Origin: Promethearchaeota archaeon
Lineage (GTDB): Archaea > Asgardarchaeota > Lokiarchaeia > Sigyniarchaeales > SOKP01
DNA length: 24,785 nucleotides
Reading direction: 5' to 3'
Assembly (NCBI GenBank): GCA_019057795.1
Contig: JAHLWS010000045.1
Location: forward strand, 1 to 24,785
Shown: in pieces, positions 8,375 to 16,134 of the stretch
Layout of the letters: each line of letters opens with the position of its first letter
Position numbering within the stretch: the stretch's first letter is position 1
Notes under the pieces: generated by a model
Told to the model about the DNA's origin: nothing
What the model saw: only the letters and a program-made list of their open reading frames with translations
Database searches by the model: none
Program-made: the position numbers and the translations under genes

Positions 8375-8741
8375 CTATTCAAGTTTCTCCCAGAATTCTT
8401 CATTTGGATGCTCAGGTTGTGGAATTTGTTTCAGATTATGGTAGCAAAAATCGCACATAGTTCCCCCTTGGAGAATCGTCTGAGATCGGGTCAAATGAAA
8501 ATCTTTATTCGCTTTTTTGGGAGAGAAAAAGTCACCAAAGCAAATAATATAGTACAGCATGTCAGGATCTTCAACATTCCGCAAAGCCTCACCATAGATA
8601 CAGCTTGTGACCTTAAAAATATATTGATCATCTTGAGACATGCCTGAAATAAAACTATGCGTCTTGACACCCGCCGAGTCGATCCTTTCCCGATAATCTT
8701 TCAATGATGAATAAGTCTGTTGTTTGGGATTTGGACGAGAA
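8375..8741 (-). pseudogene. N-terminally truncated L-2-amino-thiazoline-4-carboxylic acid hydrolase-like (ATC hydrolase family) gene
   Basis: C-terminal pattern 'VTSCIYGE...IC.GD...LTRSQTILQGGTMCDFCY'. The ORF-track ATG (8773) lies inside an unrelated thiolase scrap in another frame. Confidence 0.6.
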
Positions 8742-8840
8742 TGGATCGGTGATTCCCGCTTCTTTATAAGCATACTTCGCTGCTTTTATGGTCGATGGGA
8801 ATGCTGTGAAGTCTGCTCCAGGTCCACCGTGAGGCACATA
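8742..8840 (-). pseudogene. 99-bp internal fragment of a thiolase paralog
   Basis: YVPHGGPGADFTAFPSTIKAAKYAYKEAGITDP is 27/33 identical to YIPSNGPGADFTAFPATVKAAEYAYKEAGITDP encoded at 13776-13874. Confidence 0.9.
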
Positions 8841-8957
8841 TAGTAAAGAGGAGTTAGAATTAAACCTCGAAATTACCTTATAAAAAAAGAAAAACTTAAA
8901 TAATGATCCGACAAAATTGAAAAATAAAAACTAACTTTATTATATAAAATTTATTGT

Positions 8958-13433: not shown

Positions 13434-14684
13434 TTAATCTCTTTGTCCTAAAACTGTGACGGAACAGACGCTAAATGCCCCACCGAGATTTTGGCATAAA
13501 CCAACCTTAGCATCGGGAACCTGTCTCCCCTCAGCTCGTCCTTGAAGTTGTTTGGTAATCTCTTGAAGCATGCGACAACCAGTTGATCCAATTGGATGAC
13601 CAAAAGATTTCAGTCCACCAGAAGGATTAACCGCAGTCTCCCCATCCCAATTAAATGTTCCATTCTTTAATTCCTCAGCAGCCATTCCACGATCGCAGAA
13701 TTGTAAGTCTTGACAATTTATAAGCTCAGTTATCGTGAAACAGTCGTGTACTTCGGCGGCATCGATTTCCTTTCTTGGATCTGTAATACCCGCCTCTTTA
13801 TATGCGTATTCGGCTGCTTTAACGGTCGCAGGAAAAGCTGTAAAATCCGCTCCAGGGCCGTTAGAAGGAATATACCATGGAAAATTAGTTCTACACGATA
13901 TAGCGTTTGCTTTAACTAATATATAATCGTCCGCGTGAGCATAACTTTCAGCAAGCTCTGGTGTAGTCAATATTAACGCAGCAGCTCCGTCCGACATGGC
14001 GCAGCAGTCAAAGCGACCGAGAGGGTCAGCGATCATTGGGGCTTTCATTACTTGGTCAATCGTGATCTTACTTCGAAAATGCGCTTTTGGGTGGTAAGAA
14101 CCGTTATCGTGGTTTTTAACCGCCACACGCGCTAAATCCTCTTTTGTCCAACCAAATTCGTGAAAACATCTAGTTGCTGCCATCGAAAACATAGCAGGAG
14201 CCGAAGGTAACGGTAAAACGGGGTGTCCAAATATTTTAAAGCCGGGTAAACCGCTTCCGCCCTCGTCCATGAGTCTAGAGCATATTAACAAGGTGTTAAT
14301 ATTGTTTCTCCACTCCACAGGCGAGGACTACATCGTAAGCTCCAGATGCGACGCCAAAACAAGCATTTCGCTGAATCACTATAAGTGATTTCATTTACGA
14401 AAAGCGTCCATCCCCGAAGCGCAATAGTTCTCAGTACGCGTGATAGGAATCCCATCCAATCTTAGGATATCCTCCACTAATGCACCAGACATTCCAGTGA
14501 AGTAGTAGAAGATACCGACCCATGCTGCTTCAACCTCGTCCTTTTTTATTCCCGCATCTTTAAACGCATCCCGAGAAGCTTCAAATAGCAAGTCGTATTG
14601 GTTTTTATCCCATCGTTCGCCATATTTTGTAGCGTCACAGCCAATAATGGCTACTTTATCTCTAATTCCTTTTATTTTACTCAT
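13434..14684 (-). CDS. SCP2-type acetyl-CoA acyltransferase (thiolase), 396 aa, in three exons: 14684-14395, 14365-14306, 14274-13434
   Basis: Joined exons give 1191 nt with ...ENYCASGMDAFRNACFGVASGAYDVVLACGVEKLMDEGGSG..., catalytic Cys, AEVHDCFT, GHPIGSTG and GLCQNLGG. Strong GAGGTGA RBS; no other lesions. Confidence 0.88.
14275..14305 (-). other. Candidate bulge-helix-bulge-type mRNA intron 2 (31 nt)
   Basis: mRNA GGAG-AA|A-C(A)AUAUUAACA-CCU-UGUUAAUAUG-CUCU-AG|A-CUC. The 4-bp helix GGAG/CUCU is flanked by AAA and AGA; excision gives GAG AAA CUC AUG (E K L M). Confidence 0.75.
14366..14394 (-). other. Candidate bulge-helix-bulge-type mRNA intron 1 (29 nt)
   Basis: mRNA UCGU-AA|A-UGA(A)AUCACU-UAU-AGUGAUUCA-GCGA-AA|U-GCU. 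The 4-bp helix UCGU/GCGA is flanked by AAA and AAU; excision gives UUU CGU AAU GCU (F R N A). Confidence 0.75.
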
Positions 14685-14691
14685 TTTTTTT

Positions 14692-14698
14692 TCACCTC
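14692..14698 (-). promoter_or_regulatory. Shine-Dalgarno site GAGGTGA of the thiolase, overlapping the upstream stop codon
   Basis: TAGAGGTGA followed by an A-run and the ATG at 14684; typical archaeal anti-SD complement, implying co-transcription. Confidence 0.8.
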
Positions 14699-16134
14699 TA
14701 ATGTCTTAAGGGCCGACATTTCCAATAGTAGTTATGGAAATCAGCTCCTTCGTGTTCTTTTCTGAAAGTAAGTTCAACTTCCATCCCAATTTTTACGTTC
14801 TCTTCGGGTTTTTGGATTTCCGTCATGTTTAATAACACGCGTCCGCCACCCTCTAAATCAATTACACATCGAGGGACTGGTGTAGCTAAGTAAGCCCCTC
14901 CAACTAGATGATCTAAAGTATACGTAAAAATGGTTCCTTTGTGTGCAAGTTTAATTAGTTCAAGCTGGTCGTCTGCTCTACAAACAGCGCACGAACGCGC
15001 TGTTGTAGGATATTGAACGGTTCCACAGCTAGTGCATTTAAGGCCATACCATCTATAAACAGCGTATGTATCTCGCCACATGGTTACAGCAGAGCTTTTT
15101 CGGACATAACGATCTTTTACAAGTAATTCTTTATTTTCAACAAATACGTTGTAATTCTTCAGAGCGATCATTGATTTTTGGTGTCCTGCTACGCCCAAGT
15201 GCTTCTTTGAGAGTTCTCTTACAGCTTTTCTGTCTGTGATGTGCATTAAAATAGCATCTGCTCCATCTCCATATCCTGCCAAAATTACTTTTGCATCTTC
15301 CTTAGGTCGTTTTAAAGCAGCCATTAGTAGCATGAATGCCATCGGGGTTCCAAAATCGCCTAACTGGAAAAATAAACCGTTTTGAGCGGCTCCTTGTGGA
15401 AACTTCATCATTTTTGAGATTCTCCCGTGAACTCTAGGGTTGTTATAATAATAAGCTGCAATGTCAACTTCTTCTGGTTTTAGATCGTTCCTTTTCATAA
15501 TTTCAGTCATTACTTTCGTAATATTTTTCATGTAGAATTGATTGTCCATTTTGACTTCGAAAGTTCTTATAAATTTATCTTTGTTTGTCCGCTTCCAAGG
15601 TCCTGTTACGTTTGCCGAGATCGAATAATAATCGTCAATAATGAGCGGTAAATCGTCCCCTTCTGCTATTAATAAAGCTGCCGCGCCATCAGCGTAACCG
15701 TATTCCCACATGGTGGAAGGTTCAGGCTCTCTAGTATCAGCAGCGACAATAAGAATGCTTTTTATGTCTTTATTCGCTTTGATTGTATCAATCGCTCTAG
15801 CTAGGGCAGTAGTTCCCGATTTTAATGAATCAGTAAAATCTGCTGTTATTATACCTTCCCTTAAGTCCAATACTGTAGCAATTAAAGAAGCCGAATCTTT
15901 TTCCGTGTAGACTTGAGTAGTTGACGCGAAAAAAAGTCCATCAACGCTTTTTAGGTCGACACCTGCTAAACAATCTAACCCCGCTTCAACCGACATGGTA
16001 ATACTATCTTCGTCCGCGCTTGCAACTGCTTTTGAGCCGGGAATAGAAGGAAAATCCCATGCTTTAGCAATAAGATCGCGAGGAAGCAACCAGCGCGGTA
16101 AATACGCGCCATAACTTTTAATACCAATTGGCAT
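14698..16134 (-). CDS. HMG-CoA synthase/KAS III-like domain fused to a DUF35 (Zn-ribbon + OB-fold) domain
   Basis: GIKSYGAYLPRW, DEDSITMSVEA, G.ADGAAA, AGYGDGADA; C-terminal CTSCGTVQYP...CAVC, GTIFTYT, IGMEVELTFRK, YYWK. Confidence 0.85.
   Translation of the reverse strand: MPIGIKSYGAYLPRWLLPRDLIAKAWDFPSIPGSKAVASADEDSITMSVEAGLDCLAGVDLKSVDGLFFASTTQVYTEKDSASLIATVLDLREGIITADFTDSLKSGTTALARAIDTIKANKDIKSILIVAADTREPEPSTMWEYGYADGAAALLIAEGDDLPLIIDDYYSISANVTGPWKRTNKDKFIRTFEVKMDNQFYMKNITKVMTEIMKRNDLKPEEVDIAAYYYNNPRVHGRISKMMKFPQGAAQNGLFFQLGDFGTPMAFMLLMAALKRPKEDAKVILAGYGDGADAILMHITDRKAVRELSKKHLGVAGHQKSMIALKNYNVFVENKELLVKDRYVRKSSAVTMWRDTYAVYRWYGLKCTSCGTVQYPTTARSCAVCRADDQLELIKLAHKGTIFTYTLDHLVGGAYLATPVPRCVIDLEGGGRVLLNMTEIQKPEENVKIGMEVELTFRKEHEGADFHNYYWKCRPLRH

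What the first reader, a model, noticed from the sequence alone, without database searches (positions are those of the whole stretch)
14275..14305. Intron 2: 31-nt BHB-like insert in the GVEK motif, with extended exon-exon pairing
The insert splits the Lys codon of the conserved thiolase GVEK motif. The intron stem AUAUUAACA/UGUUAAUAU is perfect. Beyond the helix GGAG/CUCU, the flanking exons pair further (GAG/CUC and GUCCUCG/CGAGGGC), as expected for an endonuclease substrate. It is only 60 nt from intron 1 and unrelated in sequence, suggesting repeated independent intron gain at conserved motifs. Because 29 and 31 are not multiples of 3, both must be excised, which could act as a post-transcriptional control (inference).
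Basis: partly seen in the sequence, partly recalled or inferred. Interest (0 to 1): 0.78.

Follow-up and report, generated by a model that had tools for sequence, protein, structure and literature searches.

The report
tRNA-type mini-intron in Asgard thiolase mRNA
A 31-base insert that breaks the only mevalonate-pathway thiolase gene of a Loki-type Asgard archaeon has the shape, cut sites, variation pattern and insert-free relatives expected of an intron removed by the tRNA-splicing enzyme, a kind of mRNA splicing so far confirmed for the coding part of only one archaeal gene (cbf5).

Summary
On the minus strand, 14305-14275 is a 31-nt insert that splits the Lys codon of GVEK in an acetoacetyl-CoA thiolase. 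A second 29-nt insert lies 60 nt upstream.

- **Fold:** it forms a bulge-helix-bulge: GGAG/CUCU helix, AAA and AGA bulges, 9-bp hairpin. Cutting after the second base of each bulge removes exactly 31 nt and restores ACGVEK|LMDEGG.
- **Relatives:** 21 of 29 orthologs lack the insert to the base. Eight carry it, always 31 nt.
- **Variation:** changes sit in the loop, or are structure-preserving in one diverged copy.
- **Flanks:** the 12+12 exon bases beside it are invariant in carriers but vary at 7 sites in non-carriers.
- **Gene status:** dN/dS is 0.04-0.06, the partner HMG-CoA synthase is single copy, and the genome encodes two EndA subunits and RtcB.

Most likely this is a real endonuclease-spliced mRNA intron (about 0.8). 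No RNA evidence could be obtained.

The same four sites recur in several clades with diverged homologous sequences, which fits old introns with repeated exact loss or exchange. A control role is untested.

This scan has noted similar introns before, in this genome and in other Asgard genomes.

The parts
14395..14684 (-). Thiolase exon 1 (290 nt). It ends ...CASGMDAFR plus AA of the Asn codon.
   Evidence: The end point is set by the cutting rule and by insert-free orthologs.
14366..14394 (-). Intron 1, 29 nt. Helix UCGU/GCGA, bulges AAA and AAU, hairpin UGAA-A-UCACU/AGUGA-UUCA. An in-frame UGA follows the 5' cut.
   Evidence: Also present in G046 and L083 with compensatory changes.
14306..14365 (-). 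Exon 2, 60 nt. With the two bases carried over from exon 1 it encodes NACFGVASGAYDVVLACGVE and the first two bases of the Lys codon.
14275..14305 (-). Intron 2, the finding, 31 nt. It runs from the third base of bulge AAA, through the hairpin 14304-14281 and CUCU 14280-14277, to AG of bulge AGA.
14308..14311 (-). Exon half (GGAG) of the 4-bp central helix of intron 2.
   Evidence: Invariant in all 8 carriers, but present in only 4 of 21 insert-free orthologs.
13434..14274 (-). Exon 3 (841 nt with stop). It begins with the A of the Lys codon, then LMDEGGSG...; it holds the thiolase C-terminal domain.
14698..16134 (-). Upstream gene of the same operon: HMG-CoA synthase fused to a DUF35 (zinc ribbon plus OB) module. 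Single copy in the genome.

Best explanation
Intron 2, like intron 1, is an archaeal bulge-helix-bulge (tRNA-type) intron inside the coding region of the acetoacetyl-CoA thiolase mRNA.

**Proposed mechanism (inferred)**
1. The transcript folds so that exon bases GGAG pair with intron bases CUCU. A 3-nt bulge (AAA, AGA) lies on each strand and an AU-rich hairpin lies beyond.
2. The heteromeric splicing endonuclease (two EndA paralogs in this genome) cuts after the second base of each bulge.
3. RtcB joins the exons.
4. Removing 31 nt here and 29 nt upstream gives one 396-codon reading frame with GVEK restored.
5. Unspliced mRNA would stop at UGA in intron 1 or UAA in intron 2.

**Shown**
- The fold and the exact register.
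- Insert-free orthologs.
- Structure-respecting variation.
- Purifying selection on the gene.
- The presence of the enzymes.

**Inferred:** that cutting and joining actually occur.
For: 1. **Exact absence.** 21 of 29 orthologs of the genus are uninterrupted and lack the 31 nt to the base. These include close kin at about 92% identity after the inserts are removed.
2. **Rule gives the protein.** The cut rule yields ...ACGVEKLMDEGGSG... in all 8 carriers. At a neighbouring site of the same gene (G007), only the rule's register gives the conserved CAMSD. Other 30-nt removals give CCVVS, CAVS or CAKS.
3. **Variation respects the structure.**
   - The window, L089/L090 and G016-type copies differ only in the 3-nt loop (CCU, CUU, UUU).
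   - L088 loses only the loop-closing pair.
   - L083 differs at 11 of 31 positions. It keeps 31 nt, both 3-nt bulges, the 4-bp helix (G-C to G-U) and a 9-bp stem with a C-G compensation.
   - Introns 1, 3 and 4 of the same gene show several compensatory pairs.
4. **Exon flanks are constrained only in carriers.** There are 0 variable sites in the 12+12 nt next to the intron among the 8 carriers, against 7 among 21 non-carriers. Window-lineage synonymous changes AGG>CGU and GAA>GAG fall in the exon halves of the two central helices.
5. **The gene is alive.**
   - dN/dS is 0.04-0.06 against close kin, and 18 synonymous against 6 nonsynonymous changes are specific to the window.
   - All nine insert-bearing sequences examined give a 392-396 aa frame once the inserts are removed.
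   - Orthologs match the acetyl-CoA acetyltransferase equivalog NF004810 and PDB 6esq_A.
   - Paralogs are at most 41% identical and the HMG-CoA synthase is single copy.
6. **Machinery is present.** Two EndA-domain proteins are encoded, one closest to crenarchaeal catalytic alpha subunits, and one RtcB. Asgard EndA is reported as the broad-specificity (alpha-beta)2 type (PMC5829648).
7. **Chance rate** of such a motif in register is about 7e-5 per placement.
Against:
- **The motif is not textbook.** A competing register is about equally populated, and an extra U lies between the outer and central helix.
- **The stems of most copies are identical**, so covariation for intron 2 itself rests mainly on one diverged metagenomic copy (L083).
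- **Kin are not independent.** Flank invariance could also come from co-transfer of flanks with the intron.
Confidence: 0.8

Rival explanations
1. The gene is a pseudogene. Two small palindromic insertions killed the thiolase, and another paralog supplies acetoacetyl-CoA.
For: - The genome holds at least 8 thiolase paralogs.
- Both inserts bring stop codons.
- No transcript evidence was obtained.
Against: - dN/dS is 0.04-0.06, with an 18:6 synonymous to nonsynonymous ratio on the window's own branch.
- The same insert is kept in 8 lineages with intact frames either side.
- Synonymous sites in the flanks are frozen only in carriers.
- Paralogs are at most 41% identical, and this copy alone sits beside the single HMG-CoA synthase.
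Confidence: 0.05
2. The insert is skipped at translation (ribosome hopping, as in phage T4 gene 60) or removed by a different nuclease and ligase, not by EndA and RtcB.
For: A hairpin and a stop codon follow the putative take-off point. Intron 1 has AAA-UGA ... AAA-UGC, which resembles matched take-off and landing codons.
Against: - Hopping AAA to AAA at intron 1 lands in the wrong frame (CLFWR instead of the conserved NACFGV).
- Intron 2 has no matched codons.
- The conserved features are the 4-bp helix and two 3-nt bulges, which hopping does not need.
Confidence: 0.07
3. This concerns origin, not mechanism. Intron 2 reached the window's lineage recently, by lateral transfer or gene conversion of the intron with about 20 nt of flank on each side, rather than by descent.
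For: - Window against G016: the gene is 75.7% identical, but the 72 columns around the intron have 2 mismatches. The median is 17 and the best elsewhere is 9. The two longest exact runs (35+35) flank the loop.
- Presence or absence needs at least 6 changes on the tree.
- The window's three closest genomes lack it.
Against: - Metagenome copies from the window's own clade (L089, L090) carry it too.
- L083 carries a copy diverged about as much as the gene.
- Flank identity is equally explained by selection for pairing.
Confidence: 0.3
4. Assembly or binning artefact.
For: The genome is a draft of 87 contigs with 7.5% contamination.
Against: The same 31-nt insert at the same base appears in 2 other species genomes and in 8 metagenome contigs from separate assemblies.
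Confidence: 0.01

Closest known systems
BHB intron in the cbf5 (pseudouridine synthase) pre-mRNA of Crenarchaeota (Watanabe 2002; Yoshinari 2006; Yokobori 2009, PMC2738675)
   Same: - A short intron inside a coding sequence with a bulge-helix-bulge fold.
- Linked to hetero-oligomeric EndA.
- Patchy presence, with inferred loss in some lineages.
- Mis-annotated by gene callers as split or partial genes.
   Different: - A different gene (a lipid-pathway thiolase) and a different phylum (Asgard, Promethearchaeota).
- Two introns in one gene here, and four sites across the genus.
- Presence or absence flips within a single genus.
- Splicing is not yet shown by RNA here.
Archaeal tRNA and rRNA BHB introns, including the many non-canonical tRNA introns of Asgard archaea (PMC5829648; bioRxiv 10.64898/2026.10.13.758758)
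   Same: - The same motif (4-bp helix, two 3-nt bulges) and the same cut rule.
- The same size class (about 30 nt).
- The same enzymes.
- This genome has only 14 uninterrupted tRNA genes detectable by ARAGORN.
   Different: - The host RNA is a translated message.
- The exon half of the helix is made of codons, so synonymous sites are constrained.
BHB intron in the 5' UTR of Haloferax volcanii HVO_1309 (PMC7714728)
   Same: An mRNA substrate of the splicing endonuclease.
   Different: That intron lies outside the coding region and does not interrupt a reading frame.
HAC1/XBP1 unconventional mRNA splicing in eukaryotes (Ire1 cut, RtcB or Trl1 ligation; from general knowledge)
   Same: A small frame-changing intron removed from an mRNA by a protein endonuclease at stem-loops, with ligation by a tRNA ligase.
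   Different: - A different nuclease and a different recognition motif.
- A proven regulatory switch there, none shown here.

Membership tests
Archaeal BHB (splicing-endonuclease) intron | Two 3-nt bulges on opposite strands separated by a 4-bp helix | tested here: met
   GGAG/CUCU with bulges AAA and AGA. The pairs have about 0.46 probability in the ensemble, next to a competing register. The feature is kept in all 8 carriers.
Archaeal BHB (splicing-endonuclease) intron | Flanking helices on both sides (hBHBh') | tested here: inconclusive
   The inner helix is strong: a C-G pair, a 1-nt bulge and 9 bp. The outer helix GAG/CUC is separated from the central helix by one extra U, or leaves a 2-nt bulge if that U pairs. 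This is a relaxed form.
Archaeal BHB (splicing-endonuclease) intron | Cutting after the second base of each bulge yields the functional RNA | tested here: met
   The rule removes exactly 31 nt and gives GVEK|LMDEGG, identical to 21 insert-free orthologs.
Archaeal BHB (splicing-endonuclease) intron | Structure conserved through sequence change | tested here: met
   Changes are loop-only in most copies. L083 has 11 of 31 changes with the helix, stem and bulges kept.
Archaeal BHB (splicing-endonuclease) intron | Host encodes EndA and an RtcB-type ligase | tested here: met
   Two EndA paralogs and one RtcB.
Archaeal BHB (splicing-endonuclease) intron | Excision and exon ligation observed in RNA (spliced mRNA, circular intron) | not testable with these tools
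The spliced junction was not found in metagenome contigs.
cbf5 intron lineage | Located in cbf5 at the conserved crenarchaeal position | tested here: not met
   The host gene is an acetyl-CoA acetyltransferase. It works like the cbf5 intron but is not a member of that intron lineage.

The most novel reading that the evidence does not exclude
In this Asgard genus, ordinary metabolic genes carry several endonuclease-spliced mRNA introns at fixed sites. These introns are kept for long periods, co-evolve with the codons that pair with them, and are lost exactly and repeatedly. That would be a prokaryotic exon-intron gene architecture with rapid intron turnover in the closest relatives of eukaryotes. 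The base-exact losses hint at recombination with spliced-RNA copies or with intron-free alleles.
Probability: 0.5. Interest if true: 0.88.

Novelty: new member of a known kind. Interest (0 to 1): 0.78.

Why it matters
- **State of the literature.** The papers I could search say splicing of an archaeal coding sequence by the tRNA endonuclease is confirmed only for cbf5 (PMC2738675, PMC7714728). None describes such introns in Asgard protein genes.
- **What this gene shows.** The gene is needed to start isoprenoid lipid synthesis. It carries two such introns 60 nt apart. The genus shows four sites, with a mosaic of presence and absence.
- **Testable questions it opens.** How do protein-coding introns arise, persist and disappear in the archaeal lineage nearest to eukaryotes? 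How does an RNA structure constrain synonymous codons?
- **Practical consequence for annotation.** Public gene calls of this thiolase are fragments of 278, 187 and other lengths labelled 'partial'.

Tried and rejected
- **RNA evidence.**
  - The exact spliced-junction pattern gave no hit in metagenome contigs. Records of this genome may be left out of that collection.
  - Among 154 database proteins fetched, none matches the spliced product of any carrier above 96%.
- **Genome-wide census.** I looked for BHB motifs whose removal fuses two long open frames, with shifted-register controls. There was no excess at the true register, about 80 or about 800 candidates in every control. The background comes from hairpins at same-strand gene junctions. 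The filter also misses this gene, because exon 2 has only 20 codons, and my first hairpin criterion rejects intron 2 itself. The census says nothing either way.
- **Repeat family.** Neither intron has another copy in the genome. A 30-nt look-alike at C78:51512-51541 lies in AT-rich, intergenic-looking DNA and is at chance level.
- **ARAGORN intron calls** were too noisy to compare tRNA and mRNA introns in detail.
- **Ribosome hopping** was rejected on reading frame.
- **Target-site duplication** (AAAUG at intron 1, CGCAA at intron 3) was rejected. Repeat lengths differ between sites, and the repeats follow from near-palindromic central helices.

Full report
**What is there**

The window's minus strand carries an operon of HMG-CoA synthase fused to a DUF35 module (14698-16134) followed by a thiolase (13434-14684). 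The thiolase is in three pieces:
- Exon 1 ends ...CASGMDAFR.
- A 29-nt insert follows.
- A 60-nt exon comes next; with two bases from exon 1 it reads NACFGVASGAYDVVLACGVE plus the first two bases of the Lys codon.
- The 31-nt insert of the finding (14305-14275) follows.
- Exon 3 supplies the last base of that Lys codon and then LMDEGGSG....

**Fold and register**

The 86-nt context folds at -29.3 kcal/mol (z -3.4). In a 201-nt fold both insert structures coexist. Read as a bulge-helix-bulge, the parts are:
- exon GGAG pairing with intron CUCU;
- bulge AAA on the 5' strand;
- a hairpin made of a C-G pair, a one-base bulge, 9 bp and loop CCU;
- bulge AGA on the 3' strand;
- outer pairing GAG/CUC and GUCCUCG/CGAGGGC.

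Cutting after the second base of each bulge removes exactly 31 nt and joins AA|A. This is the rule for archaeal tRNA introns, taken from general knowledge.

The motif is relaxed. A competing register (AGA/UCU) is about as populated (0.51 against 0.46), and one U separates the outer and central helices.

The same rule fits intron 1: UCGU/GCGA, bulges AAA and AAU, 29 nt.

In 3 million random placements in this genome, a 4-bp helix in register plus a comparable hairpin occurs at 6.9e-5.

**Relatives**

I collected 23 orthologs from species genomes of the genus and 6 from metagenome contigs.
- 21 of 29 have no insert at this site, with the gap exact to the base.
- 18 of the 23 species-genome orthologs have no insert anywhere in the gene.
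- A pattern scan for any 21-46 nt insert at GVEK|LMD found only two other species genomes among 185,579 (G016 and G057). It found eight metagenome contigs. All inserts are 31 nt.
- The gene has four insert sites across the genus:

| Sequence | Inserts carried |
|---|---|
| window | i1 + i2 |
| L083 | i1 + i2 |
| G046 | i1 |
| L089, L090 | i2 + i3 |
| G016, L084, L085 | i2 + i3 + i4 |
| L088 | i2 + i4 |
| G007 | i3 |
| G022 | i4 |

- On the gene tree, the minimum numbers of state changes are 3 (i1), 6 (i2), 4 (i3) and 2 (i4).
- The window's clade of six holds three carriers of i2 and three insert-free genes.

**Variation respects the structure**

For intron 2:
- Most copies differ only in the 3-nt loop (CCU, CUU, UUU).
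- L088 loses only the loop-closing pair.
- L083 differs at 11 of 31 positions. It keeps the length, both 3-nt bulges, the central helix (G-C to G-U) and a 9-bp stem with one C-G compensation and a moved bulge.

For the sister introns:
- i1 shows U-A to C-G in the central helix, between a codon base and an intron base, and A-U to U-A in the stem.
- i3 shows four compensatory pairs between G016 and G007.
- i4 of L088 shows C-G to U-A.

In G007, only the rule's register yields the conserved CAMSD.

**Codons are constrained by the intron**

- The 12+12 exon bases next to intron 2 are invariant in the 8 carriers.
- They vary at 7 sites in the 21 non-carriers.
- Only 4 of 21 non-carriers have GGAG at the helix position.
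- Of 24 changes specific to the window's lineage, three are synonymous changes inside the exon halves of the two central helices (AGG to CGU, GAA to GAG).
- Kin are not independent, and co-transfer of flanks would give the same picture. Window and G016 are 75.7% identical overall but have 2 mismatches in the 72 columns around the intron.

**The gene is functional and needed**

- dN/dS against close kin is 0.04-0.06, with 18 synonymous and 6 nonsynonymous window-specific changes.
- After removal of the inserts, all nine insert-bearing sequences examined give a single 392-396 aa frame.
- The ortholog scores above cut-off for acetyl-CoA acetyltransferase NF004810. Its closest solved structure is 6esq_A, the thiolase of the thiolase/HMG-CoA synthase/DUF35 complex.
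- Paralogs are at most 41% identical.
- HMG-CoA synthase is single copy.

**Machinery**

- The genome encodes two EndA paralogs of about 200 aa. One is closest to the catalytic alpha subunits of Aeropyrum and Pyrobaculum.
- It encodes one RtcB.
- Asgard EndA is described as the (alpha-beta)2 type with the loop linked to broad substrate range (PMC5829648).
- ARAGORN finds only 14 uninterrupted tRNA genes in this 100%-complete genome. This agrees with a preprint on heavily interrupted Asgard tRNA genes (10.64898/2026.10.13.758758).

**What is missing**

Direct RNA evidence is missing. The spliced junction was not in metagenome contigs. No database protein equals a spliced product. My genome-wide census was uninformative.

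**Literature and earlier notes**

- Full-text searches found no report of BHB introns in Asgard protein genes.
- Reviews and primary papers state that cbf5 is the only coding-region case, plus one 5' UTR case in Haloferax.
- This scan has noted similar introns before, in this genome and in other Asgard genomes. Some of those notes claim RNA support. I did not verify them and they carry no weight here.

**Verdict**

This is a real, selected RNA structure at a real interruption of a functional gene. It is best explained as an endonuclease-spliced mRNA intron (0.8). The history looks like old introns with frequent exact loss, or exchange, rather than repeated fresh gain. A regulatory role is open.

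Noticed in passing
L007:1950-2000 (own genome, contig C11, about 43.76-43.81 kb, + strand): A paralogous thiolase of the same genome has a 30-nt in-frame insert with a TAA (CUGG aca ...UUGUC/GACAA... CCAG uca). It sits just before the conserved Glu of HDxF(S/T)..E, the site homologous to intron 4 of the ortholog. The cut rule gives HDAFSGQEVISYEELGF.
   Followed up: partly
L070 (G007), L071 (G022), L075 (G016), L089, L085, L088: There are two further 30-31 nt BHB-type inserts in the same thiolase in relatives, at CCA|MSD and TIT|ELIN. They show several compensatory stem changes. Intron 3 is 31 nt in L089/L090 and 30 nt elsewhere.
   Followed up: yes
window 8673-8843 (-): A 57-residue stretch 56% identical to thiolase residues 133-191. 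It lies next to or over an ORF with an ATC_hydrolase match (8375-8773). It may be a gene remnant.
   Followed up: no
window 14698-16134 (-): HMG-CoA synthase is fused to the DUF35 zinc-ribbon/OB module in one 478-aa protein. In the solved methanogen complex (6esq) these are separate chains.
   Followed up: partly
whole genome G000: ARAGORN finds only 14 uninterrupted tRNA genes, or 29 with its intron mode, in a genome scored 100% complete. Several amino acids have no detected tRNA, which suggests many multi-intron or non-canonical tRNA genes.
   Followed up: partly
G049:C242:7884-9062, G057:C2:124019-125194, G042:C58:47664-48839: Paralogous thiolases in relatives also show 1-2 stop codons inside otherwise full-length matches. 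They are candidates for further short inserts.
   Followed up: no
protein clusters: Public gene calls for this thiolase include many fragments of 278, 187, 214 and 180 aa labelled 'partial'. One lies on a 3.34-Mb contig. This pattern is expected if callers stop at these inserts.
   Followed up: partly
G000:C78:51512-51541: An AT-rich hairpin that is 87% identical to 30 nt of intron 2, in DNA that looks intergenic. The match is at chance level.
   Followed up: partly
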